64,000 nucleotides of DNA from an uncultured Lachnospiraceae bacterium (GCA_937950565.1 CALFCS010000190.1:1048-65047); one strand, 5' to 3'. Positions 4,494 through 29,273 are shown, counted from the first letter of the stretch. Translations and numbers: made by a program. Notes: generated from the sequence alone by a model not told the origin.

Positions 4494-4890
4494 CCTCCCT
4501 CCATTTTTCAAAATTTTCTTTCTTAAATACCGTCAGCTTCAACGCTTCCTTTTTTCTCCAGAAGCGCTCGCTGACCACCACCTGTTCTTTCTTCCAATAG
4601 ACAAAGAAAGCCTGCCCATCTTCTCTTTCCGGCTTCCATACACCTGCCTGTTCCGGCTTAGACATAATCTCTAAGATCTGCCTGATATCATCTCTAATCT
4701 GAAATTTTTCTTCTCTGGCTTCGATAATACCTGCTTCGGACATATGATGCATCGCACGTATAATTTCATCTTCCCGAAAAATTTTCTCCGGCATATAGAT
4801 TCCTTCTATCTTTGTAACTTCCATTGCATGAAGCAGAATCCGCACCTCATCAAAAGTAAGAACAATTCCTTTTTCAAGCATCTCAGCCAT
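4465..4890 (-). CDS. Uncharacterised T7SS-locus protein, paralogue of the N-terminal domain of the 1670-2374 protein
   Basis: 141-aa ORF. It overlaps the LytTR gene stop by 8 nt. See the by-eye alignment given for 1670-2374. Confidence 0.6.
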   Translation of the reverse strand: MAEMLEKGIVLTFDEVRILLHAMEVTKIEGIYMPEKIFREDEIIRAMHHMSEAGIIEAREEKFQIRDDIRQILEIMSKPEQAGVWKPEREDGQAFFVYWKKEQVVVSERFWRKKEALKLTVFKKENFEKWREDVQSDNCGN

Positions 4891-10343: not shown

Positions 10344-10868
10344 TTACACGTATGCCATATCAAATGTAAATACTGTCACTTTCATTTTCAAATCTCCAAC
10401 CATGATCCGGTCACCGGAATATACATATTCTGCTCCCTGTATCAGATGCCTGCCAAACCCTCGCAAAATCCATGTGCCATTTCTGGAATTCAAGTCCTGC
10501 AGGACCAACTCGCCCTGATACAAATACAGCATACAATGTGTTCCGGATACCGTTTCCTCCCGAATGCAAATATCATTGATTTCAGGGCTGCGCCCAATCC
10601 GGATTTTTTTCTCCGGATCGAACACATATCCCCGTTTTTCGCTGTCCTTCCATTTCAAATAAAGCATAATCTTCTGCCCGCCCTGTATCTGCTTGCTATG
10701 ACTGCGGATAGCATTATTCAGGCAGTTTTCTTTAATTACTTTATATGCTGCATCATAATACTTTTGTTTTTCCGCCTTCTGGTTGGCATGCACCACATAA
10801 CTAACCACACTGGTGACTGCCACACAGATAACAATAATAATTCCTATTAACATAACAATTCCGTCCAA
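10344..10868 (-). CDS. Single-pass membrane protein with a C-terminal FHA domain
   Basis: N-terminal TM segment (IVMLIGIIIVICVAVTSVV). FHA pattern IRIGRSPEINDICIREETVSGTHCMLY...LQDLNSRNGTW. Confidence 0.75.
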   Translation of the reverse strand: MDGIVMLIGIIIVICVAVTSVVSYVVHANQKAEKQKYYDAAYKVIKENCLNNAIRSHSKQIQGGQKIMLYLKWKDSEKRGYVFDPEKKIRIGRSPEINDICIREETVSGTHCMLYLYQGELVLQDLNSRNGTWILRGFGRHLIQGAEYVYSGDRIMVGDLKMKVTVFTFDMAYV

Positions 10869-10892: not shown

Positions 10893-12491
10893 TTAGAAAC
10901 CGCACCCATTTTCTGCCTGATTCAATACCTGAAGCCTTCCATGGTCAATTTTACATACCGTCCACACATTATCCACACCGGAAGAAGTATCTAACTGAAC
11001 AACCACCGGATCTTGTCCCGGAAGATAAATCTTCACGGTCGCGCCATTCTGTGCCATCGTCCCCGTACCTCCAAAATCAACAACCGAGAACGTATACACC
11101 CCGTCCAGGTTATAAATCGTCGTTGTCTCCGGTCCATATCCGTCTGTATCATCCAGATCCAGCTCCGCAATCGTTGTTCCGCCGGAAACGGCCTTCTTAT
11201 TCGTAAAAGAGACATGAATACTGCTTCCGCCATCTGGAGAGCCCGTCAGATGAGAGTCCAGATCATGCGGCTGGGAACCCCACTCAAGGACAATCCGCGC
11301 CTCGCCCGACAGTTCCGGTGAAATTACAAACTGTTCGCCACTGTATGATTTCCCTTTTTCAATCCGGAATTCAAAAACTTCTGAAATATACCCCTGGGCC
11401 TGTACCGTAATCTCGTAGTCATCTGCCTCTAACTGCACCTTGAAAGCTCCTTTGTTGTCCGTTTTTTCCGTCACGCTTTTATGAGATGCATTCCTCGGCT
11501 TGAAGATGAGCGTTGCATCCGCAACCCCTTTTCCGGTAACAGCATTCACTACAACACCCTCCAAAGTACCTTCTGAAGACTTCCTCTGATTCGCCATAGG
11601 AAGAATTAGTTCGTTCCACTTCGCAGCCGGTACAATATTTCCCGAAGCATCCGTCCCGATCCTGGCAATCAGCTCCTCTTCCTTATTCTCGATATAATAT
11701 CTGCCTTCTAATGTCTTTGCCGTCACTCTTTCACCAAACAACATCTGCATACGCTCCAGGCTTGCCCCGCCGTCAAAATTACGGAACAGAATTCCCAACG
11801 AATCCAGTACGATTTTCTCCGGCATCCCGGATGCATACGGAGTCTTTCTGCTTGTATCTACAATTTCATTATTATCAGAAGTATTTTTGTAATAGCAGAT
11901 TGCGTTCAGCTTCGCGTGCCTTACCTCCAGATATCCGTCGCTATTTGTCTGTGCGCTTACTACCTGTCCAAATTCAGACTTATAATCATCGAATGTATAG
12001 TTAACAATCTTCTGCACAAAAGAGGTATCCCATGCAATATCCTGTGAGGCTGTCGCAAGATCAATCTGTACCGCCTCATCCTCCTCACCGGCCGCCATGG
12101 AAACAAGAAGCTGCTTCTCCAGAGAATTTAACCTGCTCTGGATTCTGGCTGAACCTGTTCTCTGAAATCCCGTTCTCAAGATGGATTTCGCTTTTGAGGC
12201 ATCCTCCTGCTCCATATAAATCTCGGACAGAGCCAGATAAGCATCCTCTTTTTCCGGGTTAATTGAAATCGCATTCTCGTATTCTGCGATTGCCTGCTGC
12301 AGGTTATTTTCCGCTCTATATTTTTCGGCCTCCTCAATCGCAGCCATATAATTGCTTTCTTTCATCTTCCCGCTGACCAGCACAAAGGCTGTCCCTGCAA
12401 TAACAAGGATAAGCAGACTGATTAATACCGATAAGATAATCTTTACTTTTTTATTTTCTTTCGTTCCCATAAATGTTCCTCTCTCATTCAA
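10893..12491 (-). CDS. Membrane-anchored extracytoplasmic protein with TPR, a CarboxypepD_reg-like beta-sandwich and a C-terminal LDLDDTDGYGPE domain (alternative start 12470)
   Basis: N-terminal TM segment and TPR-like AIAEYENAISINPEKEDAYLALSEIY. NAVTGKGVADATL...TDNKGAF resembles a carboxypeptidase regulatory domain. ATG 12491 overlaps the upstream stop as ATGA. ATG 12470 has a GAGAGGAA RBS. Confidence 0.65.
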   Translation of the reverse strand: MNERGTFMGTKENKKVKIILSVLISLLILVIAGTAFVLVSGKMKESNYMAAIEEAEKYRAENNLQQAIAEYENAISINPEKEDAYLALSEIYMEQEDASKAKSILRTGFQRTGSARIQSRLNSLEKQLLVSMAAGEEDEAVQIDLATASQDIAWDTSFVQKIVNYTFDDYKSEFGQVVSAQTNSDGYLEVRHAKLNAICYYKNTSDNNEIVDTSRKTPYASGMPEKIVLDSLGILFRNFDGGASLERMQMLFGERVTAKTLEGRYYIENKEEELIARIGTDASGNIVPAAKWNELILPMANQRKSSEGTLEGVVVNAVTGKGVADATLIFKPRNASHKSVTEKTDNKGAFKVQLEADDYEITVQAQGYISEVFEFRIEKGKSYSGEQFVISPELSGEARIVLEWGSQPHDLDSHLTGSPDGGSSIHVSFTNKKAVSGGTTIAELDLDDTDGYGPETTTIYNLDGVYTFSVVDFGGTGTMAQNGATVKIYLPGQDPVVVQLDTSSGVDNVWTVCKIDHGRLQVLNQAENGCGF

Positions 12492-13920
12492 TGCTGACTA
12501 CAAATTCCTCATCTCCCAGACTTACACGGTCTCCATTTGATACAAGTGTATCGGTATCTGTCTGAACAGCCTGCCCGTTTATATACGTGCGGTTTGTCGA
12601 ATGATTATCCCTCACATAACAATTACTATTTTGAATTGTCACCAGTACGTGCCTGCGGCTAACGGCATTATTATCTTTAATACAGTAGTCTACATTTGCA
12701 GGGTCCTTTCCAATCCAGAAGGACGGCTTGCTGATACAGAACGTTTCCCCTGTTTTCTGACGGGTCATCCGCACAAGCTGCATCTTTCCCCCAGTCATAA
12801 ACTGCCCGCTCAGCACGGATGTTTCATTATAATAGGGCAACACCGTCGTTTCATTATAGGAACCTTCCTGCTGCTGATAGGATGACTGCCTCACCGGTTC
12901 CTGATAAGCTGGCTGCTGTGCCGGCTGCTGATAAGCTGGCTGCTGTACCGGCTGTTGATAGGGTGGCTGCTGCACCGGCTGTTGGTAAGATGGCTGCTGT
13001 ACCGGCTGCTGATAAGCTGGCTGCTGTACTGGCTCCTGGTAGGCTGGTTCTTGATAAACCGGCTGCTGCACTGGTTCCTGGTAAGCGTCCTGCTGTGACG
13101 CTCCATAACCATATCTCATCTGCTGCTCCATGCTTATCCGGTATTGCATTAAAAAGATTGCAAAAATAATATATGTTGCTGAAAGCGCCGCGCTGGCCAG
13201 GAATCCCCATATGTAAAGTGTAATTAAGGAAGCAATCGCTGAAATGGCATTTGTCACCCCAAAGATATAACAAAATACCTGCACATATTTCGATATCTGG
13301 TCATCTGGCCTGTCACTCGTAATCGTGCTGCGCATAACCTGGATTGTGCCGTTTAACTTCAGATAATAAACCAGCTTGAGCACAGTAACCGCTATATAGC
13401 CCAGTGCAAAAAGAATTAGCCAAACAACTGCCGACATACTGTAAACTGAAGCATTCATCCCGGCCGTTTCTCCGGCTATGACAACCAGAACAACAATGCA
13501 CAGAATCAAATAGACAGCTATTTTCACACAAGTAATTACCGCATCAATAATGATGACTACGCGGATAATCGTAAATCCTGTTATGTCCATATCTTCTCTT
13601 CTTTTGCTCTTTGCCGCTCCGAAAATTACCCAGATTCCTGCCAGAATTACAAACGCCGGAATCATTCCTATAATATTGCCTGCTATTATGGCCGCATTTA
13701 TCTTCCCAATGTACGACGCGAGCTCATAATATATGAAAGAACCTGCGTCCCTTCTGATTTCATCTAAAATAACATCCAGATAAGGAATCCCCGAAATACT
13801 GCTGAGCAGCCCAAACAATCCATATACGGAATAGGTGATTGCCCCAACCAGATATAATGGAGAACCCAGCATTGATTTCGCGGTCTTTACCGCTGAACTT
13901 TGTCCTTTTGAGTTATACAT
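12484..13920 (-). CDS. Polytopic membrane protein with a P/Q-rich repeat linker, two ET[TS]VL motifs and a C-terminal FHA domain
   Basis: Start set at ATG 13920, which has a GGAGGAGAGG RBS. The ORF-track extension to 14049 is basic, non-protein-like sequence. The protein has multiple hydrophobic segments, (VQQPxYQQP)n repeats, and the FHA pattern FWIGKDPANVDYCIKDNNAVSRRHVLV...DNHSTNRTYING. Confidence 0.75.
   Translation of the reverse strand: MYNSKGQSSAVKTAKSMLGSPLYLVGAITYSVYGLFGLLSSISGIPYLDVILDEIRRDAGSFIYYELASYIGKINAAIIAGNIIGMIPAFVILAGIWVIFGAAKSKRREDMDITGFTIIRVVIIIDAVITCVKIAVYLILCIVVLVVIAGETAGMNASVYSMSAVVWLILFALGYIAVTVLKLVYYLKLNGTIQVMRSTITSDRPDDQISKYVQVFCYIFGVTNAISAIASLITLYIWGFLASAALSATYIIFAIFLMQYRISMEQQMRYGYGASQQDAYQEPVQQPVYQEPAYQEPVQQPAYQQPVQQPSYQQPVQQPPYQQPVQQPAYQQPAQQPAYQEPVRQSSYQQQEGSYNETTVLPYYNETSVLSGQFMTGGKMQLVRMTRQKTGETFCISKPSFWIGKDPANVDYCIKDNNAVSRRHVLVTIQNSNCYVRDNHSTNRTYINGQAVQTDTDTLVSNGDRVSLGDEEFVVSIE
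12898..13086 (-). repeat. About seven tandem copies of a 27-nt coding repeat (VQQPxYQQP units)
   Basis: Direct reading shows ctgctgataagctggctgctgt(a/g)ccgg repeated with small variations. It stays in frame inside the 12484-13920 CDS. Confidence 0.85.
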
Positions 13921-13969
13921 TTCCTCTCCTCCTTCTCCTCTCTTCCATGTCTTTCTGTTTTCATAGTTT

Positions 13970-14104
13970 CTACCGATAAATGTGATAAACCTGTTCTCGT
14001 ATTCTTTTTTTCTTTTTCTGAATCGCCCATTGCGCCGCTGCCGTTCCAAGTGTAGACAAAATCAGAACACATACGCCAACAATCATAATCCCGGCTCCGC
14101 TCAT
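13970..14104 (-). CDS. Unannotated 44-aa single-TM small protein (MSGAGIMIVGVCVLILSTLGTAAAQWAIQKKKKRIREQVYHIYR)
   Basis: It falls below the ORF-track size cutoff. The ATG lies 7 nt after a GGAGGG that sits in the last codons of the kinase gene. It has a hydrophobic helix followed by a KKKKR positive-inside tail. It fills an otherwise unexplained 187-bp gap in a tightly packed operon. Confidence 0.5.
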   Translation of the reverse strand: MSGAGIMIVGVCVLILSTLGTAAAQWAIQKKKKRIREQVYHIYR

Positions 14105-14107
14105 CTC

Positions 14108-16024
14108 TTATCCCTCCAGCTCATTCATAATTTCTTTCAACTGTTCCATATGCGTATCGGAAGCGCCCTGGGAATCATAAAGATGCTTTCCGCTTTCATA
14201 GCGGAACTTCAAATCATTCCCGACATCCGCATAGCTTTTCTGCTCCTTCGCCAAATCCAGATAGTTGTAACACATCCACATAGATACCTCATACTTATCC
14301 GGATACTCCGTCAGCATCTCTTTTAAAGTAAGATTACTTCTCTCATATTTTCCCATTGCTCTTTCTACCAACGCCAGATTCAGCCTGTCCTCATATCCCG
14401 GGTGACTGCTTTGATTCAGCCATTCATAGCTTTCATAGGCTTTCGTAAGATAGGCGTTACCGTTTATCTCGCGTTCACTCTCAGTCGCCGCAAGATAAGC
14501 ACTCTTCCCAAGTCTCCTTCGTACGTCCTTGTCATCCTTCATCTTCACCGCTTTTTCCAGCACCGCAACGGCATCGGAATATGCCTGATTTTCCAGATAA
14601 ATATCCGAAAGCAGCAGATATGCATCACAAGCCAGTTCCATGTCCCCTGTCTGTATAGCTTCTTCCGCAATTGCTTCCAGCTCGCCTTGCACGCTCTCTT
14701 TTTCACCATCTGCCCAGGCGATTTCCGCCACAAGAAGATTCTGTTCTTCCGGAGAAAGTGCCTTCCGTGCTTCCAGTAACTGCACCGCCTGTCTCGCCTT
14801 CTCGGTCTGCCCGTCACGGATTAGTGCAACAATATAATTCTCACAGAAATTTCCCGATGCTTCGTTCAAATCCCATGCCTCTTTGTAATAATCTGCCGCT
14901 TCCCCGAACCGTTCCTGCCGGAAATAGCTTTCCCCCAATATATTCAGAACTTCCGCTTTCTTCTCCGTGTTCTTATCCAAATAAGAGCGATAAGTAAAGC
15001 TGTTCAAAATATCTGTCCCTTTTGCAACTACTTCCGTCTCGTTCTGATTTTCCGCCGAAATATAAAGACTCTGATATGCCTGCTGCCATTTTTCCACTGT
15101 ATTCTGCCAGTTACCATAATAAATGCACAGCGAGCCTGCTATTACACAAAGGAGCCAAGCAAATAAAATACTGATTTGCAGATAGCCATATCTCCGGTAG
15201 ACTGGATCCATTTTCCCGATATCTTCAAGCGAAGCCCTAAGCTTCTCTGCAGATGCATACCTCCCCGAAGGCCTGCGTTTTAACATCTTACAAACAATTG
15301 CCTTCAGGCCATCGCTATAAGGAATATCCATATATCTCAACTGTTCGCTCTGGTCGTCCACCGGCGACGGTAATAATCCCGTCATAAGACAATAAAAGGT
15401 AGCGCCCAGACTATAAATATCCATCCGTCCATCCAGGATAATCCTGTCCTCTTGCCCGCACAGAATGTGCTGCGCTCTTTCATATTGCTCCGGCGCCGCA
15501 TACCACGGACTGATTCCCTGCACGTCCTTCGACGTCTCCCCGTCCAGGGAAATATTAAAGTCAATCAGACAGACATCACCAGAGTCTGTAATCATAATAT
15601 TCCCCGGCTTAATATCACTGTGCAGAATCGGAGGCTGCTGCGAATGCAGATACTCCAACACTTCCGAAAGCTGCAGGAGCCACCGCCTTATCACCTCCTC
15701 CGGGAATGAATATTTCCGGTCAAGATAATACTGCAGGTCTCTGCCCTCTATGTATTCCATCACCGTATAAATACTGCTTCCGATTACCAGAAAATCGTAA
15801 ACCTGCGGAAGATAGGAGTGATGCAGCCGTTTCAGAATATCTACCTCCGCACGTCCGTTAACCTGTCCGGCAAAATGATCCTTTATCTTTTTCACAACCA
15901 CCTTTTTATGAAGGCGCAGATGCTCCGCCAGATAAATGATTCCGGTACCTCCCCGCCCGATTTCCGTGATAATCTGATAAATACCGTCCAGGATCATTCC
16001 ATTTTTTATCCCGTTCATACACAT
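14108..16024 (-). CDS. Hanks-type Ser/Thr protein kinase with one TM segment and an extracytoplasmic TPR domain
   Basis: Kinase motifs: GRGGTGIIYLA, VVVKKIK, HSDIKPGNIMI, IDFNIS and SPWYAAPE. TM segment ISILFAWLLCVIAGSLCIYY. The C-terminal half is TPR-like. Confidence 0.85.
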   Translation of the reverse strand: MCMNGIKNGMILDGIYQIITEIGRGGTGIIYLAEHLRLHKKVVVKKIKDHFAGQVNGRAEVDILKRLHHSYLPQVYDFLVIGSSIYTVMEYIEGRDLQYYLDRKYSFPEEVIRRWLLQLSEVLEYLHSQQPPILHSDIKPGNIMITDSGDVCLIDFNISLDGETSKDVQGISPWYAAPEQYERAQHILCGQEDRIILDGRMDIYSLGATFYCLMTGLLPSPVDDQSEQLRYMDIPYSDGLKAIVCKMLKRRPSGRYASAEKLRASLEDIGKMDPVYRRYGYLQISILFAWLLCVIAGSLCIYYGNWQNTVEKWQQAYQSLYISAENQNETEVVAKGTDILNSFTYRSYLDKNTEKKAEVLNILGESYFRQERFGEAADYYKEAWDLNEASGNFCENYIVALIRDGQTEKARQAVQLLEARKALSPEEQNLLVAEIAWADGEKESVQGELEAIAEEAIQTGDMELACDAYLLLSDIYLENQAYSDAVAVLEKAVKMKDDKDVRRRLGKSAYLAATESEREINGNAYLTKAYESYEWLNQSSHPGYEDRLNLALVERAMGKYERSNLTLKEMLTEYPDKYEVSMWMCYNYLDLAKEQKSYADVGNDLKFRYESGKHLYDSQGASDTHMEQLKEIMNELEG

Positions 16025-16098
16025 TTCCTCTAAGCTGTACAGAAGGCTGTCTGAATTCAGAGATTCAGGCAGCCCACTTTCAACTCTGCATTTATTTT

Positions 16099-19000
16099 TT
16101 AATTCTGTGCTTCTTCCTTATCTTTCCGTCTCTTCGCAATCAGGAAAATAATCAGGAATGCTATAGCGGCAAGGCCTACCAGTGAACCGATAAATAATGG
16201 TGTGTTCCGGTAGTACTGCAATATCCAGCTGGATGTTACCATTACTGATATCACTCCATCTTCTTTTCCGGTCTTTCCTATGGATGTATCTGTAATGTTA
16301 CCAGCAGCATCGACCGCAACTGCCTTTACATCCTGCCAGTCAGAAGAACTCTTCAATGTATAAGGAAGTTCTCCTTTATACTTTAGAATCTGTTCTGCAG
16401 TATAAGGCTTCTCCTTCATCTCACCATTTACATATACTTCTACCGTTTCCATTGCCACATTGTCAGCAACTGAGACTTTTATCTCCCGTTCATCTACCCG
16501 GTATTGTCCTTGATCTTCAATACCTGTAATAACCACACTCGGAGCGGTCTTATCAATAACAAATTCAATATCTTCATCCTTGATTTTATTATTTACTTCA
16601 TTCGTTGCACGGTCTACGGAATCAATCGTAATAGTGTATGTACCTTCTTCCTCGAAGTTTTCTTTATTGATTGTGTACTCATATTGCTTCCAGGAAACTT
16701 CACTTCCGCTTTCCTTGACCGTATAATCCGTACCTTCAACAAGATCTGTAAGCTCTCCGTCATGACCGCAGGATATTCCCCTGTGTGTCAGAGTATCGAC
16801 ATTGGTCTCTACTACAACAATATCCTCTTCTTCCCCATTATAGTAATCCTTTACGAACCGCTTTGACTCCTCACTAAGTTCAAAGTTTGAGCCAAATCTG
16901 TTGACAGAGAATGTTACCTGCTTCTCATCGGAATTTCCTGCAAGGTCTGTTACCTTTGCTACCATTGTATACACATCATCTGTCTCCGGCGTGCGTTCAA
17001 AATCAGCCATCTTAATGCTTTCACCATTTGGAATATTACTTCTTGTTCCGTCTACTGCTTTTTCTGAATGCTTGGAGCCTTTATATGTAATACTTACTCC
17101 ATTTACGTCATGATTCGTATCGCTATATCTCACACCTGGAGCAACAACATCATTATTCGCTGACTTGTCCACGATATCGAAAATCTCAATCACCGGCTTC
17201 GTCTGGTCAATAACAAATTCATTTACCGTGTATACCTGTGCGGAATTACCTGCAAGGTCCGTATAATTAACATTGAAAGAGTAATTGCCGTCTGCTGTAA
17301 ATGGTACGGTTGCAGTATGTATATTGCCTCCCATAGACCATCCATGAACACCAGGTGTTACTGTATTCGAAGTAATCGCTGTGCGCACATCGCTTCCCCT
17401 GAAATTATGCTCATTTACAGTAATCGTTGCCGTACGAGCCGCATTGTAATATTTGCCATTCAATGCATTGTTGTTATCAAATGTTACATTGATAGTCGGA
17501 GCAGTTTTATCAATGGTAAATTCTGAAACGGCTGCTGTATTCGATACATTCCCTGCACGGTCCGTACAGCTCATGGACATAGTATAGTCACCATCTGCAG
17601 AGAATGTTACTTTGCAAGTATTGACATTATCATCACTTGTTCCAGAATCATTCACATCCCATCCGCTGACTGTCGGTCTTGTACCGTCTGTATTCGTAAT
17701 ATTCAGGCGAATCTGATTTCGGTCAAAATTACGTTCCCTTACAATAATGGTCGCCGTTCTGGTAACGTTATAATATTTACCATTCAATGGGTTATTATTA
17801 TCAAATTTGATTTCTACCCTTGGCGCCGTAATATCAATCTTAATGTCCTTTGTTGCTTCAGAAATATTGCCGGCATAGTCAACTGCCTTCACATAAATCG
17901 TAACAAAATTGCTATTATTTTTCTGTGCATTAACAGTTTCCGATTTAACAAGTGTCTGCTTCCTTGCTGTCTTATCAGCAAATTCTGCATTATAATTACC
18001 CGCCTGTGTAACCGTTCCGTTATTTCTTACTTCATAATAAACTTCCTTAAGCCCGGAATATGTTCCTCCCGATGCTGGATCCTTTATATGCATTGTAAAA
18101 TCTACATTACTGCTGTAAATACCCTGTGCAGGCTGCGCAGTTGTAATCTCAATCTTTGGCGCATAAGAATCCTCTGCTCCCGGAGCTGTCTTATCCACAA
18201 TTACTCCCTCATGAGAGTTCAGATAAGTAACATTTCCCGCACGGTCAACAACTCTCATATAATATACAACCTGCTGTTCTTTCTTGAGAGTCTCCTGTGT
18301 CTCAGCTCCAGGATTTCCTTCTATCCATAGTTTTTCATCCAAGTTCTCCAAATCCTTCTTTGTTAAACCGGCAAATGTTCCTTTTTTCTCTACATTCGGA
18401 ACATATTTGTAATAATGCATGGACTTAACTCCAGAAGTCTCATCACTATTTTTCATGACAATTAATTCAGATTTATTCGTAAAGAATCCAAATGTAATTT
18501 CTTTCAGGAAGGTTTCCCATGTCGTTTCACGAATTTGAATCATACCAGTTGGCGCTTTTTCATCTTTTGTAAAGTAACGTGTTTCATGAGTCTCTGCTTT
18601 ATTACCTGCAAGGTCTGTGTAGTCAAGAGCAAAGGTGTAATTTGCATCTTTATCGAAAACAAATGTCTTCGTTTTGATATCTCCAACAGCTTCCCATTTT
18701 TGTTTCGCAAGATCTGTGTACTTAGCTGTAGCAACTGGCTTTTTCTCGTTATCTATGGCAGTATACTCAAGAGTCATCTGTTTCGAACCATCTGAAAATG
18801 AATTATCCGCATTCGTGCTAAAATTACGCTCTGTTATCTTTACATTTGCGGTTATTTGTGAAACACTTTCATAAATTCTTTCTTTTTCATTTTTTCCCGG
18901 TTCAATCTTCCCATTGCCTGCCATGTATTCCACATCTATTACAGGTATGATTTCATCAATAGTAAAAGCTTCTCCTGCTTTTGTACCATCCACATAATTA

Positions 19001-24402: not shown

Positions 24403-24420
24403 TCCTTCTACTCCCTTTCT

Positions 24421-24966
24421 TTATAACATTTCTTCTGTATGAACCCACAGAATTTCCTTCTCTATCTTAAAAGCCCCCGGCAATTCCGGCTTATCCGGCT
24501 GCTTTGCTTCCTTCTCCTGATTCTGGTTTTGTGATAACAATGTTGTTTCACCACCGGAGCTTAGAAGTGTTGTCTCCGATGAACCGTCCTCCATCAGACC
24601 GTCTGTTTTTTGTGAGCCATCAGTGTAAACGTTCTCCGGTTTCCTCCTCTCAGAAACCGGCTGTGCCTGGGCAGGGGAATACACTGCTTGATTTCCAGCC
24701 TTCGGAGGTTCAATACGGTGTTCCGGCTGTTCGGCAATCGCACCGCTCGTTCCCACACTCTGCCGCAGTTTCCCGGTCTGGTCATTCATCTCCTTCATCT
24801 TCTGAATCGTCCGCTTTGCCCCACGTCCCGTCTTCATATCAAAAATACCGCGAATATTAAAACGGAAGAATAAAATAACCGAAATCACAAAAAATACAAT
24901 CGCCAATACCAGGAATATAAGAAATGCAACATGGTATATCTTAATCATCATTTCCAGCTTCTGCAT
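24421..24966 (-). CDS. Small single-TM protein with a cytoplasmic low-complexity tail carrying two ETTLL motifs
   Basis: Start set at ATG 24966 (AGGAGGT RBS 7 nt upstream). TM segment VAFLIFLVLAIVFFVISVILFF. The tail contains ..SSETTLLSSGGETTLLSQ.. Confidence 0.65.
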   Translation of the reverse strand: MQKLEMMIKIYHVAFLIFLVLAIVFFVISVILFFRFNIRGIFDMKTGRGAKRTIQKMKEMNDQTGKLRQSVGTSGAIAEQPEHRIEPPKAGNQAVYSPAQAQPVSERRKPENVYTDGSQKTDGLMEDGSSETTLLSSGGETTLLSQNQNQEKEAKQPDKPELPGAFKIEKEILWVHTEEML

Positions 24967-26710
24967 CCTTCTTACCTCCTGATTTATTATCCGTATCAAA
25001 TGCTTTCTCAGAAAATTCTTTCGAAACAGCATCCTTTGCCTGCTCTATCCTTTTCAAGACTTCTTTTTTCTTTTCTCCTATCTCATCTCCATCGTCTTCA
25101 ATGTAGGTTTCTACAAATCCCTGTACACTGTCCAGCTCGTTTTTCAATTCCGCCTGTGTAATTCCTACCTTCTTAAAATCTTTTGTATACTGATAAACCT
25201 GATAAACGAAATCCTCATACATAGCAAGCGCCATTGTAGGATTGTTATTCTGGCTGACAAGATTCTTTCCGCTAACCAATTCCATCATATCATTCCAGTA
25301 ATCCCGATAGCTTACCACACTTTCCCCCGTTTTATCCTCTACGTTCAGGCTTGCATAGTATTCTGCTATTTTGCACAGAATTCTGGAGTTTTCTACTTTG
25401 TAAGCTTCCAGACTTTCACTTTCAGCGGCTATCTCAAACCACTTCTGGGACATCTGTTTATTTCCTTTTTCTTCATAAAAGAAGTAATATGCCATCGCCA
25501 TATCATATGCAAATTCATCATATCCTTCTTCATTTGTCTCCAGGTAATCTTCATTACTCTTATTTCCATTACCTGTATAACCAAGGATTTCTTTCATTTT
25601 TTCTGCTTCTTCCTGCGTAAAATTCCCCTGGCTTCCATCACTTTCTTTATTATTCTTGAATTCGTCAAGCAATTTTATATACCCTTCACTTTCTTTCGGG
25701 TTAAGCTTGATTGCATTTGCATAATTTCTTGCTTTTTCTTCTATCGTGATTGCAGTAGCTGCATTCTTCATGTAATTGTCATAGCTTTTTCCGGTCGTAC
25801 TCGTCTCGGCAAATTTAAATCCAACACTGGCAGTCAGCGATACAACCGTCAGAATGGATGTCGTCAGAAATATTTTCCACTTGCGGTTCTGTACTTTTTT
25901 GTACTCCTGGTCCAGTTCGTCATAATGCTCCAGCGCATACATCAGTTCCGCGCAAGACTGATAGCGGTCGTCCGGATTCTTCTGCGTACATTTCAGAATG
26001 ATTTCCTCAAGACCGGAAGACAGATTGGGATTCCACTGACGAATCGGATACATCTCATAAGGAGGAAGGCACGGATTGTGTCCGGTAAGCAAATGATACA
26101 GTGTTGCGCCCAGGCAATATATATCTGTCCGCCCGTCGGTCTGCCCATGGCCTCCAAACTGCTCCGGCGCCGCATACCCCTGTGTTCCGAGACACGTGGT
26201 ATCTGCAATGCTTGCGGATTTGTACTCTCTGGCAGTACCGAAGTCAATAATCATGATATTTCCGTCCGGTCTGAGCATGACATTTGACGGCTTCATATCT
26301 CTGTAAATAATCGGTGGTTTTCTGGAATGAAGATATCCCAGCACATCACAAATCTGTTTTGCCCACTCGATTACCTTTTCCTGCGGCTGCGCTCCTTCTC
26401 TTTTCAGTGCTTCACTGAGCGGCCGCCCTTCTATGTAATCCATGACAATCAGGAACGTGTCCTCGCAGTCAATCACATCAATAATACTTGGCAGATTCGG
26501 ATGATCCAGACGTTTCAAAATATCCGTCTCAGCAATCAGATTCTGCTTGACGACCTCATAGTTAGACACTCCGTCCTTCCGGACTTCTTTAATCGCCCAC
26601 GGCTTATTGGCTCTCTCATTCATTGCAAGATAGACAATACTCATACCGCCCTGGCCTATTTTATTCAAAATCTTATATTTCCCATCTACAACGGAACCTA
26701 TTTCCAGCAT
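24941..26710 (-). CDS. Hanks-type Ser/Thr protein kinase with one TM segment and an extracytoplasmic TPR-like domain (no PASTA repeats)
   Basis: Kinase motifs: GQGGMSIVYLA, WAIKEV, YRDMKPSNVML, IDFGTA and GTQGYAAPE. TM segment IFLTTSILTVVSLTASVGF. Confidence 0.9.
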   Translation of the reverse strand: MLEIGSVVDGKYKILNKIGQGGMSIVYLAMNERANKPWAIKEVRKDGVSNYEVVKQNLIAETDILKRLDHPNLPSIIDVIDCEDTFLIVMDYIEGRPLSEALKREGAQPQEKVIEWAKQICDVLGYLHSRKPPIIYRDMKPSNVMLRPDGNIMIIDFGTAREYKSASIADTTCLGTQGYAAPEQFGGHGQTDGRTDIYCLGATLYHLLTGHNPCLPPYEMYPIRQWNPNLSSGLEEIILKCTQKNPDDRYQSCAELMYALEHYDELDQEYKKVQNRKWKIFLTTSILTVVSLTASVGFKFAETSTTGKSYDNYMKNAATAITIEEKARNYANAIKLNPKESEGYIKLLDEFKNNKESDGSQGNFTQEEAEKMKEILGYTGNGNKSNEDYLETNEEGYDEFAYDMAMAYYFFYEEKGNKQMSQKWFEIAAESESLEAYKVENSRILCKIAEYYASLNVEDKTGESVVSYRDYWNDMMELVSGKNLVSQNNNPTMALAMYEDFVYQVYQYTKDFKKVGITQAELKNELDSVQGFVETYIEDDGDEIGEKKKEVLKRIEQAKDAVSKEFSEKAFDTDNKSGGKKDAEAGNDD

Positions 26711-26721
26711 CTCTTATTCCT

Positions 26722-27504
26722 CTAATCAACTTTTATAATAATGACTGATATGTTATCATTTTCCTTGCGCTGCTTATTAAGTTCTGTGCAATAAGTAGCG
26801 GCTTCTTTCATATCCTGCTCGGTCGTCAAATTCTCCCGGTTCAGTATCTTCGAAAACTCCTCCGGTGTAATAACATGCCGGAATCCGTCTGAACAAAGCA
26901 GGAATACATCTCCTTCTTTATATGTTCCTTCATAAAAATCTGGTACTACTACCGGACTTGCACCAACGCACTGGAGCAGCACATTTTTCTGCGGATGTAC
27001 TGCGGCCTCTTCCGGGGTCATCCTTCCTTCATCTACTTCTCTCTGGACAAATGTCTGATCCTTCGTGAGACTCTTCATCCCCTCATTCACAAGGTACACA
27101 CGGGAATCCCCTACGTTAATAATGTAATAATCCCCTTCTACAAAGAGCAGCGCAGCCAATGTGGTCCCGCATGGTGCGTGACAGGTCTCCCCATACCCGG
27201 CGATTTTAACATTGATTTCATCGACCAGCTGGTTCCAGCTCTTCTGCAGTGCATTGTAGTCAATCTTGCCCTCTTTTCTTTCCTTATATAATAAGAAAGG
27301 AAATTCTTCTTCGAACCAACGAGAAAATGCCCTAATCAAAGTGGCGCTGGCGACCTCGCCTTTTGCAAGGCCGCCCATTCCGTCACAGATTACGGAAAGA
27401 TGAACCCTTCCGTAATCCGTACTTGCCTCTTTGATTAAGACAGAATCCTGATTGGTATTTTTTCTGATTCCAATATCTGTATGTGCAATACTCAAAAACC
27501 CCAT
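26722..27504 (-). CDS. PP2C-family Ser/Thr phosphatase
   Basis: Motifs TDIGIRKNTNQDS, ICDGMGG, VGDSRVYL and LLCSDG, which are typical of Stp/PrpC. It lies immediately upstream of a kinase gene. Confidence 0.9.
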   Translation of the reverse strand: MGFLSIAHTDIGIRKNTNQDSVLIKEASTDYGRVHLSVICDGMGGLAKGEVASATLIRAFSRWFEEEFPFLLYKERKEGKIDYNALQKSWNQLVDEINVKIAGYGETCHAPCGTTLAALLFVEGDYYIINVGDSRVYLVNEGMKSLTKDQTFVQREVDEGRMTPEEAAVHPQKNVLLQCVGASPVVVPDFYEGTYKEGDVFLLCSDGFRHVITPEEFSKILNRENLTTEQDMKEAATYCTELNKQRKENDNISVIIIKVD

Positions 27505-27545
27505 CTTATGTCTCCTGCCCTGATATTTTTATATCTGCCTCTTCT

Positions 27546-29273
27546 TTATGACAAATGAAATTCAAATTCTTCATCTGATAATTTCAATACTGACTGGTTC
27601 GATAAGAGCATCTCTTTATGCGGGCTTGCCTGCACGCCATTTACAAAGGTACCGTTCGCAGAACCCATATCTGCTACATAATAATCCGCACCTTTCTTAA
27701 TGATTTCGCAGTGAAGACGGCTGACAGTCGTATTATCCATAACACAGTAATTTACTTTTTTCTTCTCTTTACCGATTTTGAAATTCTGAAGATTAATCAT
27801 AATCTTCTCGCCATTTTTCTTACGGATCAAGTATGCGCTTCCTGCTCCTCCGCCGAGGAGTGTTGTCTCTCCTGCTCCTGCATCCAGAAGTGTTGTCTCT
27901 CCTGCTCCTTCCGGCATAGATGTTGATGTCGCTGTCGGTGAAGGCATGGACGGGCCGCCTGCTCCTGCCGGTGAAGACATTCCTCCCGGATAACCAGATG
28001 GTCCAACCGGCGGTTTTGCTTTTGCTGATTTTTTCTTCTTGCTTGAAGATACAACGATTACAATAATGATTATGATAATAATCACAACTGCCGCGATAAT
28101 TCCGCCGATGAGAATCATATTCGGTCCGGACTTCTCCTCCAGTTTCATTGCATCTTTTAACCTGCTGGTTGCTGAATTAATTTCTGTTGCCTCTGCATCG
28201 TCACCTTTGGCATAAACAGTTTCCGCCGCGCCGATTTCATCATTTAATTTTCCAACGCTTTCTTCTGTATATTTCTTCGCATCTTTCACAAGAGCTTTTG
28301 CCTCTTCAATCGTTGCCTGCAGGTCTGCAAGAATTTTTGAGTTATCTACCTTTTCTGGTCCTGGTGGAACGGGTGGATCTGGTATTACTTCACCCCCAGG
28401 TACATATGTAATACCAAAAGTATCCAGCCCTTTTCTCACCGCATTAATCTGAATAGAATAATTTTTCTTTCCGGCAATGAAGGAATTAATTCCGATTACA
28501 TTATCGTTTTCATCCATCAAAGGACCGCCTGAATTACCATTATTTAAGGTTGCAGTATGCTCAATAATATCTACGTCTGCCGTTGTTGCCTTTGAAATAT
28601 TTCCCACAACACTGGACACGTCATCCTTTGTATTATATTCCTTGTTGCTGATTGAATCGGAAGGATACCCCATGGCATACACCTGATCCTTTACTTCAAT
28701 CTGATCGCTGTCTCCTAATGCAACCGGCTTCCTGTCATATATCTTCTCTGCCAGTTTTACAGCTGCAAAGTCGAGATCATCACTATTTACGCTGTCATGC
28801 ATTGTCGCAGCCACACGCATATCGCGATTTACATATAAGTAGATTTTGATGTGACTGTCATTTGGTGCAAGGTTCGGAACATTAAAAAGTGTTTTGAAAT
28901 CTTGAAATTCATCATTATCCATTGTGATTACATGCTTATTTGTCAATACATATTCATCATTGATCAAAAAGCATGTACCCCATTTGAAGTCATAGAAATT
29001 ACCCGCATCATCTTCATATCCTAATGAAATCTGCATTACACTTTCTCTCGGATCGTTCGTTGCCGTCAAGAGGCCTGTATTCCCTGCGTTAGTGTTATCG
29101 TCTTCTGCTATAGTCGATATTTGAATCGGCTCTGGCGACAATGAACGTGGCTCAAGAGTATATTCTGGTTCTACTCCCTCTGCCATAACCGGCAGCACCA
29201 TCATCCACATCATGCAAATTGCTGTAAGCAGCGACAGCAGTCTGCCTGCTCTTTTTCTTGTTGTACTTCTCAT
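27546..29273 (-). CDS. Secreted/membrane-anchored trypsin-like (S1) serine protease, TM segment, two ETTLL motifs and a cytoplasmic FHA domain
   Basis: Signal peptide followed by the protease core (TNKHVI..., GNSGGPLMDENDNVIGINSF). TM segment MILIGGIIAAVVIIIIIIIVIVV followed by KKKK. Then GAGETTLLDAGAGETTLL and the FHA pattern FKIGKEKKKVNYCVMDNTTVSRLHCEI...DMGSANGTFVNG. Confidence 0.8.
   Translation of the reverse strand: MRSTTRKRAGRLLSLLTAICMMWMMVLPVMAEGVEPEYTLEPRSLSPEPIQISTIAEDDNTNAGNTGLLTATNDPRESVMQISLGYEDDAGNFYDFKWGTCFLINDEYVLTNKHVITMDNDEFQDFKTLFNVPNLAPNDSHIKIYLYVNRDMRVAATMHDSVNSDDLDFAAVKLAEKIYDRKPVALGDSDQIEVKDQVYAMGYPSDSISNKEYNTKDDVSSVVGNISKATTADVDIIEHTATLNNGNSGGPLMDENDNVIGINSFIAGKKNYSIQINAVRKGLDTFGITYVPGGEVIPDPPVPPGPEKVDNSKILADLQATIEEAKALVKDAKKYTEESVGKLNDEIGAAETVYAKGDDAEATEINSATSRLKDAMKLEEKSGPNMILIGGIIAAVVIIIIIIIVIVVSSSKKKKSAKAKPPVGPSGYPGGMSSPAGAGGPSMPSPTATSTSMPEGAGETTLLDAGAGETTLLGGGAGSAYLIRKKNGEKIMINLQNFKIGKEKKKVNYCVMDNTTVSRLHCEIIKKGADYYVADMGSANGTFVNGVQASPHKEMLLSNQSVLKLSDEEFEFHLS

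What the first reader, a model, noticed from the sequence alone, without database searches (positions are those of the whole stretch)
12484..29273. Duplicated ETT[LV]L motifs in three locus proteins, next to an FHA domain in two: possible GarA-like phospho-switches
Each of three proteins in the locus carries a pair of near-identical Thr motifs in low-complexity cytoplasmic linkers.
- YNETTVL..YNETSVL (DNA 12811-12860), about 20 aa before the FHA domain of the 12484-13920 protein.
- GAGETTLL DAGAGETTLL (27856-27870 and 27886-27900), about 25 aa before the FHA domain of the protease fusion.
- SSETTLL SSGGETTLL (24535-24549 and 24562-24576), in the small membrane protein encoded between a kinase gene and the giant-protein gene.

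Established knowledge:
- FHA domains bind pThr with a preference for a hydrophobic or acidic residue at +3, and ET-T-L-L places Leu at +3.
- Actinobacterial GarA/OdhI carries an N-terminal ETTS motif. Hanks kinases phosphorylate it and it then binds the protein's own FHA domain.

Inference:
- These may be kinase target sites that act as intra- or intermolecular FHA ligands and wire the secretion apparatus together.
Basis: partly seen in the sequence, partly recalled or inferred. Interest (0 to 1): 0.65.

Follow-up and report, generated by a model that had tools for sequence, protein, structure and literature searches.

The report
Conserved threonine motifs beside FHA domains
Three membrane proteins of a gut-bacterial type VII secretion gene cluster carry strongly conserved, repeated E-T-x-(L/V)-L peptides in disordered cytoplasmic tails that look like kinase-written, FHA-read phosphothreonine docking sites, giving precise candidate switch residues for a secretion system whose regulation is untested.

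Summary
The only six ET[TS][LV]L peptides in all six frames of the 64-kb window are the three reported pairs (0.13 expected). The locus is a Lachnospiraceae T7SSe/j-like type VII secretion cluster with two Hanks kinases, a PP2C phosphatase and four clear FHA domains. The motifs are islands of conservation in otherwise variable, AlphaFold-disordered, cytoplasmic linkers:
- 118 of 120 protease-FHA orthologues keep two copies, 10 residues apart.
- All 82 homologues of the small protein carry 1-6 copies of T-x-[LVI]-L.
- DUF6382-FHA (TseJ-type) T7SS proteins carry the same pair.

Thr(0) and Leu(+3) are invariant. Position 0 is never Ser (0 of 628), whereas position +1 switches freely between T and S. 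This fits a pT-x-x-L ligand for FHA domains. The activation loop of kinase 1 has the same D-T-x-Φ-L pattern.

Best reading: these are kinase-written, PP2C-erased pThr sites that locus FHA domains bind, in trans for the small protein and in cis or trans for the two FHA proteins, to control assembly or activity of the secretion machine. No phosphorylation or binding data exist. The system works like GarA/OdhI and the T6SS Thr-phosphorylation pathway but is not a member of either. The motif itself was not found in the literature searched.

The parts
27546..29273 (-). Protease-FHA fusion (575 aa): signal peptide, extracellular trypsin-like protease, FIVAR helices, TM helix (aa 386-409), disordered cytoplasmic linker (aa 410-476), C-terminal FHA domain
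   Evidence: Pfam Trypsin_2 5.5e-22, FIVAR and FHA 3.8e-14. AlphaFold2 gives linker pLDDT 35-38 and FHA about 95.
27885..27899 (-). Distal ETTLL (aa 459-463; Thr460 is the candidate phospho-acceptor, Leu463 is at +3)
   Evidence: T460 and L463 are invariant in 75 aligned orthologues.
27855..27869 (-). Proximal ETTLL (aa 469-473; Thr470, Leu473), 10 aa after the distal copy and 10 aa before the first FHA strand
   Evidence: Spacing is 10 aa in 116 of 118 orthologues with two or more copies.
27549..27842 (-). FHA domain of the protease fusion (aa 478-575), with invariant G501-K502, S518-R519-x-H521 and N540-x-T542
   Evidence: The closest solved relative is the GarA FHA (6i2q, E=2.2e-6).
26722..27504 (-). 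PP2C/PPM Ser/Thr phosphatase, the presumed eraser
   Evidence: Pfam PP2C_2 9.1e-10.
24941..26710 (-). Hanks kinase 1 (589 aa): cytoplasmic kinase domain, one TM, extracellular helical domain. Catalytic K, YRD, DFG and APE are present.
   Evidence: Pfam Pkinase 9.4e-50; sequence.
26189..26203 (-). Kinase-1 activation-loop D170-T-T-C-L174, which has the same [DE]-T-x-hydrophobic-L pattern as the motifs
   Evidence: The loop reads D-T-x-[CYV]-L-G-T in almost all of the 79 orthologous kinases where it could be read.
24421..24966 (-). Small membrane protein (181 aa from M23; the longest ORF starts at 25032): TM helix, conserved juxtamembrane helices, disordered tail with two ETTLL copies, conserved C-terminal F-x-I-E-K-x-I-x-W-x-H-T-E-E peptide. 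It resembles the TseH/TseK class (one TM plus an unstructured cytoplasmic stretch).
   Evidence: AlphaFold2 shows helices at aa 2-67 and pLDDT below 50 for most of the rest. No Pfam family.
24562..24576 (-). ETTLL copy 1 of the small protein
24535..24549 (-). ETTLL copy 2 of the small protein, 9 aa after copy 1
   Evidence: A 9-aa period dominates in the family (114 of 185 spacings).
16099..24402 (-). Giant surface protein (2767 aa): signal peptide, Ig-like repeats, C-terminal TM anchor. TseI-like; a possible conduit or sensor.
   Evidence: Pfam Big_13 and other Big families; sequence.
14108..16024 (-). Hanks kinase 2 (638 aa) with an extracellular TPR domain. It is non-RD (HSD) and has DFN in place of DFG.
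   Evidence: Pfam Pkinase 6.2e-40 and TPR families; sequence.
12484..13920 (-). [quoted passage not shown]
   Evidence: Pfam FHA 4.6e-14; hydropathy; 34-sequence alignment.
12838..12852 (-). Distal ETTVL (aa 357-361; Thr358 conserved in at least 90% of sequences)
12811..12825 (-). Proximal ETSVL (aa 366-370). Y364, T367, L370, G372 and Q373 are invariant.
12487..12780 (-). FHA domain of the multi-pass protein (aa 381-478), with invariant G404-K405, S421-R-R-H424, S441-T-N443 and N448-G449
10344..10868 (-). TM-anchored FHA protein (174 aa) with canonical G-R, S-x-x-H and N-G residues and no motif. Candidate reader acting in trans.
   Evidence: Pfam FHA 5.4e-12; sequence.
5622..10328 (-). EssC/TseC-type FtsK/SpoIIIE ATPase (1568 aa) with an N-terminal FHA domain (aa 114-176, DNA 9801-9989) carrying G-K, S-A-S-H and S-N-G. 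Candidate reader and the output of the pathway.
   Evidence: Pfam FtsK_SpoIIIE 1.4e-53 and FHA 4.9e-7; sequence.

Best explanation
The E-T-x-(L/V)-L peptides are short linear motifs in disordered cytoplasmic tails of three membrane proteins of a T7SSe/j-like secretion cluster.

Proposed mechanism (inferred, not shown):
- One or both locus Hanks kinases have extracellular sensor domains. They phosphorylate the first Thr of each motif.
- The resulting pT-x-x-L epitope is bound by FHA domains encoded in the same locus. Candidates are EssC's N-terminal FHA, the 174-aa TM-FHA protein, and the FHA domains directly downstream of the motifs.
- The PP2C phosphatase reverses the mark.
- The small protein has no FHA domain and carries 1-6 copies across its family. 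It would act as a membrane-tethered multivalent phospho-scaffold binding FHA domains in trans.
- In the two motif+FHA proteins, the distal copy (about 20 aa from the first strand) could fold back in cis, as in GarA. The proximal copy (10-14 aa) is probably too close and would bind in trans, giving head-to-tail pairing or partner recruitment.
- The net effect would be signal-dependent assembly or activation of the EssC machine, analogous to the T6SS threonine-phosphorylation pathway.

Shown here: the existence of the motifs, their non-randomness, their conservation, Thr-specificity at position 0, invariance of Leu at +3, a disordered cytoplasmic location, co-occurrence with kinase, phosphatase and FHA genes, and the resemblance to the kinase activation loop.

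Inferred: phosphorylation, FHA binding, and the effect on secretion.
For: Non-random occurrence:
- Six hits against 0.13 expected in the window.
- Across 79 related loci the strict motif occurs at 2.4 per 1000 aa in FHA proteins and 2.5 per 1000 aa in the small proteins, against 0.019 per 1000 aa in all other ORFs.

Conservation inside variable linkers:
- 118 of 120 protease-FHA orthologues (48-99% identity) keep two or more copies of G-A-G-E-T-[TS]-L-L with 10-aa spacing.
- T460, L463, T470 and L473 are invariant in the alignment.
- T367 and L370 are invariant in the multi-pass family.
- All 82 small-protein homologues have 1-6 copies of T-x-[LVI]-L.

Breadth:
- Of 134 mutually <50%-identical representatives that could be evaluated (147 read), 128 carry the motif and 100 of them two copies; 127 of 142 spacings are exactly 10 aa.
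- DUF6382-FHA (TseJ-type) proteins carry the same pair, for example P0164, encoded next to YukD, EssC and WXG100 genes.

Thr-specific signature:
- Anchoring on [GNSA]E-x-x-[VLI]L, position 0 is T in 614 of 628 cases and S in none. Position +1 is T 478 and S 106.
- FHA domains read pThr and not pSer, and favour a hydrophobic residue at +3 (established knowledge).

Possible writer:
- The kinase-1 activation loop reads D-T-x-[CYV]-L-G-T in almost all of the 79 orthologues where it could be read.

Possible readers:
- The closest solved relative of the FHA is GarA, then OdhI, EmbR and FhaA.
- S-R-x-H and N-x-T are invariant.

Location:
- The linkers are cytoplasmic and disordered.

Shared reader or writer:
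- The +2 residue (L versus V/I) co-varies between the FHA protein and the small protein of the same locus in 27 of 35 loci (Fisher p=0.0056, not corrected for phylogeny).

Precedents:
- GarA's ETTS switch (PMC5448819).
- The Esx-linked FHA protein EsrG, phosphorylated on a Thr in the disordered region upstream of its FHA domain, where T152A abolishes signalling (PMC13622651).
- The proposal that T7SSe/f/j systems are phospho-regulated (PMC11217815).
Against: - There is no phosphoproteomic, kinase-assay or binding evidence for any of these proteins.
- AlphaFold2 does not dock the unphosphorylated motif on the FHA domain.
- The FHA domains adjacent to the motifs, and EssC's FHA, have an invariant Lys where the canonical phosphate-binding Arg sits. 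pThr binding therefore cannot be assumed.
- In more distant loci (for example several Butyrivibrio) the small protein lacks the strict motif or has none recognisable. The small-protein arm is therefore not universal.
- The resemblance to the activation loop partly reflects generic Hanks-kinase sequence (the G-T of the P+1 loop).
- The co-variation test is confounded by shared ancestry.
- No expression data were found.
Confidence: 0.62

Rival explanations
1. Strict GarA-type reading. The motifs next to FHA domains serve only as intramolecular autoinhibitory switches: the phosphorylated Thr binds the protein's own FHA and releases a phospho-independent partner. They would not wire the locus proteins together in trans.
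For: The motif-linker-FHA order matches GarA/OdhI, and GarA is the closest solved FHA. The distance from motif to FHA is fixed: the last Thr lies 105-106 aa from the C-terminus in 112 of 120 orthologues. GarA's ETTS lies in an unstructured N-terminal extension and binds its own FHA (PMC5448819).
Against: The small protein carries the same motif, often in longer arrays, with no FHA domain. The locus also has FHA domains without motifs, namely the TM-FHA protein and EssC. Trans recognition is therefore needed somewhere. The proximal copy is only 10-14 residues from the first strand, against about 30 in GarA. By simple geometry that is probably too short to reach the binding loops at the far end of the domain (inference).
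Confidence: 0.15
2. Phospho-independent linear motif. E-T-T-[LV]-L is a beta-strand-prone peptide recognised without phosphorylation, for example by beta-augmentation onto an FHA sandwich edge, the YukD-like ubiquitin fold or EssC. This would parallel the phospho-independent EssC-FHA/EssB contact in T7SSb.
For: The composition (T, T, V/L, L) favours strands. The G-K replacement of the canonical Arg might signal loss of phosphate binding. T7SSb EssC FHA domains work without pThr binding (PMC11217815). GarA's FHA also binds partners phospho-independently (PMC5448819).
Against: Position 0 is Thr in 614 of 628 cases and never Ser, Val or Ile, while the neighbouring +1 varies. That pattern is hard to explain by strand propensity. 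The locus has two kinases with intact catalytic residues and a PP2C. S-R-x-H and N-x-T of the pThr pocket are invariant. AlphaFold2 gives no strand or docking for the motif.
Confidence: 0.1
3. Kinase substrate or pseudosubstrate only. The motifs mimic the kinase activation loop. They act as phospho-acceptor sinks, docking sites or pseudosubstrate regulators of the kinases, or phosphorylation changes the linker's properties without any FHA reading.
For: The activation loop D-T-x-[CYV]-L has the same pattern as the motif. The variable copy number of 1-6 in the small protein fits a phosphate sink or threshold device.
Against: The motif pair is inherited as a unit with one FHA subfamily across three different N-terminal architectures: protease-TM, multi-pass TM and DUF6382. 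The invariant Leu at +3 is the classical FHA specificity position. In the protease-FHA and multi-pass FHA families the spacing to the FHA is fixed.
Confidence: 0.08
4. No function. The motifs are relics of a duplicated linker segment carried along by domain shuffling.
For: Low-complexity linkers duplicate easily. The strict motif is missing from some distant small proteins.
Against: The motifs are invariant islands within linkers that otherwise diverge beyond alignment at 48% overall identity. Enrichment over background ORFs exceeds 100-fold. Copy-number changes always preserve T(0) and L(+3).
Confidence: 0.03

Closest known systems
GarA (M. tuberculosis) / OdhI (C. glutamicum) FHA regulators with an N-terminal ETTS phospho-switch
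   Same: An E-T-T motif sits in an unstructured extension N-terminal to an FHA domain. There is a hydrophobic residue at +3 of a Thr. Hanks kinases are the presumed writers. GarA is the closest solved relative of these FHA domains (PMC5448819).
   Different: GarA is a small soluble actinobacterial regulator of TCA and glutamate enzymes with a single ETTS about 30 aa from the FHA. Here the proteins are membrane-anchored and multi-domain, found in Clostridia, and encoded in a secretion locus. The motif is duplicated with a 10-aa period and lies only 10-20 aa from the FHA. The canonical Arg is Lys. The same motif also occurs in a protein with no FHA domain.
T6SS threonine phosphorylation pathway (PpkA/PppA/Fha1 in P. 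aeruginosa; TssL-pThr/Fha in A. tumefaciens)
   Same: A secretion-system locus encodes a membrane Hanks kinase, a PP2C phosphatase and an FHA protein. A phosphorylated Thr on a membrane component recruits an FHA domain and activates secretion (as summarised in PMC11217815).
   Different: It belongs to an unrelated secretion machine in Gram-negative bacteria. It uses single phosphosites that are not this motif, has no tandem arrays, and the FHA domain is not fused to the ATPase.
T7SSe / T7SSj (and T7SSf) of Garrett, Higginson & Palmer 2024
   Same: The parts list matches: WXG100 proteins, a YukD-like protein, an EssC-type ATPase with an FHA domain, a membrane kinase (a TPR-kinase as in T7SSj), a PPM phosphatase, a large Ig-like protein with signal peptide and C-terminal TM, single-TM proteins with unstructured cytoplasmic tails, and separate FHA proteins.
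   Different: No DUF6382 (TseJ) protein is found in the window. Instead the FHA module is fused to a multi-pass membrane domain and to an extracellular trypsin-like protease, neither of which that paper mentions. There are two kinases. The paper proposes phospho-regulation but names no sites or motifs.
Esr epibiont-sensing pathway linked to Esx in Actinomycetales (Wang et al. 2026 preprint, PMC13622651)
   Same: It is encoded next to or inside Esx/T7SS genes. It has a giant Ig-repeat surface protein, a kinase/phosphatase pair, and an FHA output protein that is phosphorylated on a Thr in the disordered region upstream of its C-terminal FHA. There is experimental proof that this Thr is required.
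   Different: It is actinobacterial and includes MoxR, vWA, transglutaminase and a beta-propeller sensor head, none of which Pfam detects here. The sequence context of the EsrG phosphosite is not given in the text. No tandem motif or motif-array protein is described.
Rad53/Chk2 SCD-FHA modules (eukaryotic checkpoint kinases)
   Same: Clustered Thr motifs in a disordered segment next to an FHA domain, with phosphorylation driving FHA binding in trans and oligomerisation (established knowledge).
   Different: The motif is TQ rather than E-T-x-hydrophobic-L, and these are soluble eukaryotic kinases. There is no evolutionary link beyond the FHA fold.

Membership tests
GarA/OdhI family | E-T-T-type Thr motif in an unstructured extension N-terminal to the FHA domain | tested here: met
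   The motifs lie 10-20 aa upstream of the FHA in a linker with pLDDT 35-38.
GarA/OdhI family | FHA domain homologous to that of GarA | tested here: met
   The best PDB hit is GarA 6i2q (E=2.2e-6), followed by OdhI 2kb3. This shows the closest solved relative, not orthology.
GarA/OdhI family | Small soluble actinobacterial protein that regulates KGD, GDH and GltB | tested here: not met
   The proteins are 478 and 575 aa, membrane-anchored, from Lachnospiraceae, and encoded in a T7SS locus.
GarA/OdhI family | Phosphorylated Thr binds the protein's own FHA domain (intramolecular switch) | not testable with these tools
   AlphaFold2 without phosphate leaves the linker undocked. This needs NMR, ITC or phospho-aware modelling.
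Canonical pThr-binding FHA domain | Conserved G-R, S-x-x-H and N-G/N-x-T pocket residues | tested here: inconclusive
   S-R-x-H and N-x-T are invariant, but G-R is an invariant G-K in both motif-linked FHA domains and in EssC's FHA. The 174-aa TM-FHA protein has the full canonical set.
T7SSe (Garrett et al. 2024) | TseA/A2 WXG100 pair, TseB YukD-like protein, TseC ATPase with N-terminal FHA | tested here: met
   Five WXG100 genes, one YukD-like gene, and FtsK_SpoIIIE plus FHA.
T7SSe (Garrett et al. 2024) | TseD membrane kinase and TseF PPM phosphatase | tested here: met
   Two Pkinase proteins and one PP2C.
T7SSe (Garrett et al. 2024) | TseI large Ig-like protein with signal peptide and C-terminal TM; TseH/TseK single-TM proteins with unstructured cytoplasmic tails | tested here: met
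   A 2767-aa Big-domain protein. A 181-aa protein with one TM and a disordered tail.
T7SSe (Garrett et al. 2024) | TseJ: an N-terminal DUF6382 domain plus a C-terminal FHA | tested here: not met
   No DUF6382 hit in any locus protein. The FHA module is fused to other domains. DUF6382-FHA relatives elsewhere carry the same motif pair.
T7SSe (Garrett et al. 2024) | Placement of the ATPase in the TseC clade | not tested
   No EssC phylogeny was built. The TPR-kinase resembles TsjD of T7SSj, so the locus is filed only as T7SSd/e/j-group.
Esr pathway (PMC13622651) | MoxR ATPase, vWA protein, transglutaminase and a beta-propeller-headed Ig filament | tested here: not met
   Pfam finds none of these in the locus; only Ig-like domains are found in the giant protein.
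Esr pathway (PMC13622651) | Kinase/phosphatase pair acting on a Thr in the disordered region upstream of a C-terminal FHA domain | tested here: inconclusive
   The architecture is present. Phosphorylation cannot be tested with these tools.

The most novel reading that the evidence does not exclude
E-T-x-(L/V)-L arrays together with the G-K subfamily of FHA domains form a dedicated phospho-code that assembles T7SSe/f/j-type machines throughout Clostridia.

- The small TM protein would be a multivalent, copy-number-tunable phospho-scaffold with 1-6 sites. It would convert kinase activity into a threshold for recruiting EssC through its N-terminal FHA domain.
- The phosphorylated kinase activation loop (D-pT-x-C-L) would itself be an FHA ligand.
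- On this view, the phospho-independent EssB-pseudokinase/EssC-FHA contact of classical T7SSb is a fossil of this kinase-FHA circuit.
- The extracellular protease and the Ig filament would supply the envelope or threat signal, as EsrA does in Actinobacteria.
Probability: 0.25. Interest if true: 0.75.

Novelty: new variant of a known kind. Interest (0 to 1): 0.58.

Why it matters
Type VII secretion variants with kinases, phosphatases and FHA proteins were catalogued only in 2024, and nobody has shown how they are switched on. This analysis points to individual candidate switch residues:
- Thr460 and Thr470 of the protease-FHA.
- Thr358 and Thr367 of the multi-pass FHA protein.
- The first Thr of each of the two ETTLL copies in the small protein.

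It also gives a consensus ([E]-T-x-[LV]-L, mostly paired, with a 9-10 residue period) that can be searched across thousands of Clostridial proteins. That turns "maybe phospho-regulated" into direct experiments: Thr-to-Ala mutants, peptide binding assays and phosphoproteomics in cultivable gut commensals such as [Ruminococcus] torques and Faecalicatena.

If confirmed, it would be a Gram-positive counterpart of the T6SS threonine-phosphorylation pathway. It would also be a second, independent case alongside the actinobacterial Esr/EsrG pathway of Esx/T7SS control through a pThr-FHA module.

Tried and rejected
- AlphaFold2 on the full protease-FHA with 75 orthologues, to see whether the motif docks on the FHA. 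The linker stayed disordered (pLDDT 35-38). This neither supports nor excludes phospho-dependent docking, but it argues against the motif being a structural strand of the domain.
- AlphaFold2 on the small protein. Only the TM and juxtamembrane helices are ordered.
- Literature searches for ETTVL, ETTLL and ETSVL, by word start and anywhere in the text. The only relevant hits concern GarA's ETTS motif, and nothing describes this motif.
- A search for Clostridial phosphoproteomes mentioning FHA domains and Hanks kinases returned only a general review.
- RNA runs holding the locus: none listed, so there is no expression evidence.
- An FHA HMM built from one orthologue family was too narrow to detect the TM-FHA protein and EssC's FHA. 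Those domains were read from Pfam hits and directly from the sequence instead.
- Rejected by topology:
  - The locus protease cleaving the motifs (its protease domain is extracellular, the motifs cytoplasmic).
  - TPR domains binding the motifs (both TPR domains lie C-terminal to a TM segment, so are extracellular).
  - A PDZ-type T-x-V/L ligand (the motifs are internal, and no PDZ domain is found in the locus).

Full report
**1. What the locus is**

All genes from about 29.3 kb down to about 0.3 kb lie on the minus strand. Pfam annotation gives, in transcription order:
- A trypsin-like protease-FIVAR-TM-FHA fusion (27546-29273).
- A PP2C phosphatase (26722-27504).
- A Hanks kinase (24941-26710).
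- A small single-TM protein (24421-24966/25032).
- A 2767-aa Ig-like surface protein with signal peptide and C-terminal anchor (16099-24402).
- A second Hanks kinase with an extracellular TPR domain (14108-16024).
- A multi-pass membrane protein with a P/Q-rich linker and a C-terminal FHA (12484-13920).
- A TM-TPR-CarboxypepD_reg protein (10893-12491).
- A 174-aa TM-FHA protein (10344-10868).
- An EssC-type FtsK/SpoIIIE ATPase with an N-terminal FHA (5622-10328).
- A LytTR regulator, a YukD-like protein and five WXG100 genes.

This matches the parts list of the T7SSe/T7SSj group described by Garrett, Higginson & Palmer 2024 (PMC11217815). There are two differences. No DUF6382-FHA (TseJ) protein is present, and the FHA module is instead fused to a protease and to a multi-pass membrane domain. 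Related loci occur in 79 species-level genomes, almost all Lachnospiraceae, including Faecalicatena, Mediterraneibacter, [Ruminococcus] torques, Dorea, Butyrivibrio and Roseburia. The window's own sequence is found in mouse-gut metagenomes.

**2. The observation**

The three motif pairs are present as described, with one pair of coordinates off by a single base.
- A six-frame scan of the 64-kb window for ET[TS][LV]L returns only these six sites.
- The composition-based expectation for the window's proteome is 0.13. In 2000 shuffles the maximum was 2.
- With the relaxed pattern [DE]-T-x-[LVIC]-[LF], the 13 locus proteins add only two hits: the kinase-1 activation loop and a structural alpha-C site.

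**3. Conservation**

*Protease-FHA family*
- 120 orthologues at 48-99% identity were examined, and 118 keep two or more copies.
- The consensus is G-A-G-E-T-[TS]-L-L. The spacing is 10 residues in 116 of 118.
- The last Thr sits 105-106 residues from the C-terminus in 112 of 120.
- The segment between the TM helix and the motif is not alignable.
- In a 75-sequence alignment the invariant tail columns are T460, L463, G466, T470, L472 and L473.

*Multi-pass FHA family (34 sequences)*
- Y364, T367, L370, G372 and Q373 are invariant, and T358 is conserved in at least 90%.

*Small-protein family*
- All 82 homologues carry 1-6 copies of T-x-[LVI]-L, mostly 9 residues apart.
- Variants include ETTLL, ETTVL, ATTLL, QTTLL, ETALL and ETELL.
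- Genes in the same position in more distant loci sometimes have a degenerate motif or none.

*Enrichment and breadth*
- Across the 79 loci the strict motif occurs at 2.4-2.5 per 1000 aa in FHA proteins and small proteins, against 0.019 per 1000 aa elsewhere.
- An exhaustive HMMER search with linker+FHA against 1.84 billion representatives found 13,323 relatives at E no greater than 0.001.
- Of the top 147 representatives, 134 could be evaluated and 128 of those have the motif. 100 have exactly two copies, and 127 of 142 spacings are 10 residues.
- DUF6382-FHA proteins (the TseJ/TsfJ type) carry NSFNETTVL and GGETTVL before a G-K FHA. One of them sits beside YukD, EssC and WXG100 genes.
- The pair plus this FHA subfamily is therefore one module that has been shuffled among at least three N-terminal architectures.

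**4. What the substitution pattern says**

The test was made non-circular by anchoring on the flanks, [GNSA]E-x-x-[VLI]L.
- Position 0 is Thr in 614 of 628 instances and Ser in none.
- Position +1 is T 478, S 106, with other residues occasionally.
- In the small proteins, +1 also takes A, V, M, E and Q, while T(0) and L(+3) persist.

FHA domains bind pThr but not pSer and select the +3 residue, often a hydrophobic one (established knowledge). GarA is phosphorylated mainly at the first Thr of ETTS, and its pThr binds its own FHA (PMC5448819). The pattern here is the one expected for a pT-x-x-L ligand whose phospho-acceptor is the first Thr.

**5. Candidate writer, reader and eraser**

*Writers*
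- Both kinases keep the catalytic Lys, Asp, Asn and Asp residues.
- The kinase-1 activation loop reads D-T-x-[CYV]-L-G-T in almost all of the 79 orthologues where it could be read. This is the same [DE]-T-x-hydrophobic-L pattern, so the autophosphorylation site and the motifs may share one consensus.
- A phosphorylated activation loop can itself recruit an FHA protein, as reported for PknB and GarA (reference 36 in PMC5448819).

*Readers*
- The FHA domain next to the motifs is closest to GarA among solved structures (E=2.2e-6), then OdhI, EmbR and FhaA.
- S-R-x-H and N-x-T are invariant, but the canonical G-R is an invariant G-K. EssC's FHA has the same G-K, whereas the TM-FHA protein is fully canonical.
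- Whether G-K pockets bind phosphate is the main open biochemical point.

*Eraser*
- The locus PP2C phosphatase.

**6. Location**

Positive-inside counts place both single-TM tails in the cytoplasm. K+R averages 0.96 before versus 7.1 after the TM in the small-protein family, and 1.4 versus 4.9 in the protease-FHA family. AlphaFold2 predicts the protease-FHA linker (aa 422-476, pLDDT 35-38) and most of the small protein beyond residue 67, including its motif region, as disordered. It predicts confident TM helices and a confident FHA domain. The motifs are therefore short linear motifs in disordered regions, not part of a fold.

**7. Mechanism and rivals**

*Best reading (confidence about 0.6)*
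- The sites are written by the kinases and erased by PP2C. The resulting pT-x-x-L epitopes are read by the locus FHA domains to control T7SS assembly or activity.
- Trans binding must exist, because the small protein has motifs and no FHA domain, while the TM-FHA protein and EssC have FHA domains and no motifs.
- For the two motif+FHA proteins, cis versus trans is unresolved. The distal copy, about 20 residues from the first strand, could fold back as in GarA. The proximal copy, 10-14 residues away, is probably too close to reach the binding loops. This is a geometric inference and was not computed.
- The +2 residue (L versus V/I) agrees between the FHA protein and the small protein of the same locus in 27 of 35 cases (Fisher p=0.0056, not corrected for phylogeny). 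This hints at a shared reader or writer.

*Rivals*
- A purely intramolecular GarA-type switch.
- A phospho-independent strand motif.
- A kinase substrate or pseudosubstrate with no FHA reading.
- A functionless relic.

Each is scored in its own section. The Thr-not-Ser signature, the linkage to the FHA module and the conservation argue against the last three.

**8. Comparison with what is known**

- The locus works like GarA/OdhI and the T6SS threonine-phosphorylation pathway. It is a member of neither, because defining features such as a soluble actinobacterial metabolic regulator or a T6SS context are not met.
- It belongs to the T7SSd/e/j group but fails the TseJ (DUF6382) criterion.
- The closest functional precedent is the September 2026 preprint on the actinobacterial Esr pathway (PMC13622651). 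There, an Esx-linked kinase/phosphatase pair controls phosphorylation of a Thr in the disordered region upstream of the FHA domain of EsrG, and T152A abolishes signalling. That system has MoxR, vWA and beta-propeller parts that are absent here.
- No searchable paper mentions the ETT[LV]L motif.

**9. Verdict**

Novelty is a new variant of a known kind: a pThr-FHA module in a secretion system. Interest is moderate to high for T7SS and bacterial signalling specialists, because it names exact residues and a searchable consensus.

Noticed in passing
window 26189-26203 (kinase 1, aa 170-174): The activation loop D-T-T-C-L mimics the E-T-T-L-L motif. The D-T-x-[CYV]-L-G-T pattern is kept in almost all 79 orthologous kinases, so the loop may be both an autophosphorylation site and an FHA ligand.
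   Followed up: partly
window 29412-29970 (-): An Mbeg1-like/class-3-lipase alpha/beta-hydrolase gene appears split into two ORFs (29803-29970 and 29412-29801). Only the 3' piece hits Pfam PF11187 (E=5.5e-15). It is probably a broken gene at the upstream edge of the T7SS locus.
   Followed up: partly
window 12860-13100 (-), aa ~275-350 of the multi-pass FHA protein: About 13 imperfect Y-Q-[EQ]-P-[VA]-Q-Q-P octapeptide repeats fill the linker between the last TM segment and the motif pair. DUF6382-FHA relatives also have long P/Q-rich linkers (L080 10001-11680).
   Followed up: no
window 14108-16024 (-): Kinase 2 is a non-RD kinase (H-S-D) with D-F-N in place of D-F-G and an extracellular TPR domain, like TsjD of T7SSj. 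Kinase 1 has Y-R-D and D-F-G. The two kinases may have different roles or activities.
   Followed up: no
window 4883-5620 (-): A LytTR DNA-binding response regulator sits inside the T7SS locus. Its receiver domain scores below Pfam's cut-off (E=6.7e-4), and no histidine kinase was seen among the ORFs of at least 170 aa up to about 34 kb. It may be an atypical regulator, perhaps controlled by Ser/Thr phosphorylation.
   Followed up: no
window 327-1666 (-): A 323-aa protein has a helical N-terminus and an H-E-M-R-H zincin-like motif (weak SprT-like hit). It is followed by a small lipoprotein-like ORF (327-716) and preceded by WXG100 genes. This is a candidate T7SS toxin/immunity pair.
   Followed up: no
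window 24421-24470 (-) and small-protein homologues P0386-P0467: The small protein ends in a conserved peptide, F-x-I-E-K-x-I-x-W-[IV]-H-T-[DE]-E-x-[LI]. It also has a conserved juxtamembrane T-G-R-G-A-[KR]-x-x-I-Q-K-M-x-E-x-N-x-x-T-G-K-L-R helix. Both have unknown partners.
   Followed up: partly
L052, L053, L062, L034, L037, L058 (FHA proteins upstream of the kinase): Some distant FHA proteins have T-[DE]-[ILV]-F (for example ATDIFDEL, GETELFGYG) instead of T-x-[LV]-L upstream of the FHA. This gives Phe at +3, as in GarA's T-S-V-F.
   Followed up: no
L080 1-9973 and 11749-12816: The DUF6382-FHA protein with the motif pair lies next to a Tad/Flp pilus cluster. It is also next to a second DUF6382-FHA paralogue that lacks the motif. 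No kinase or phosphatase is called in the 21.7 kb read.
   Followed up: partly
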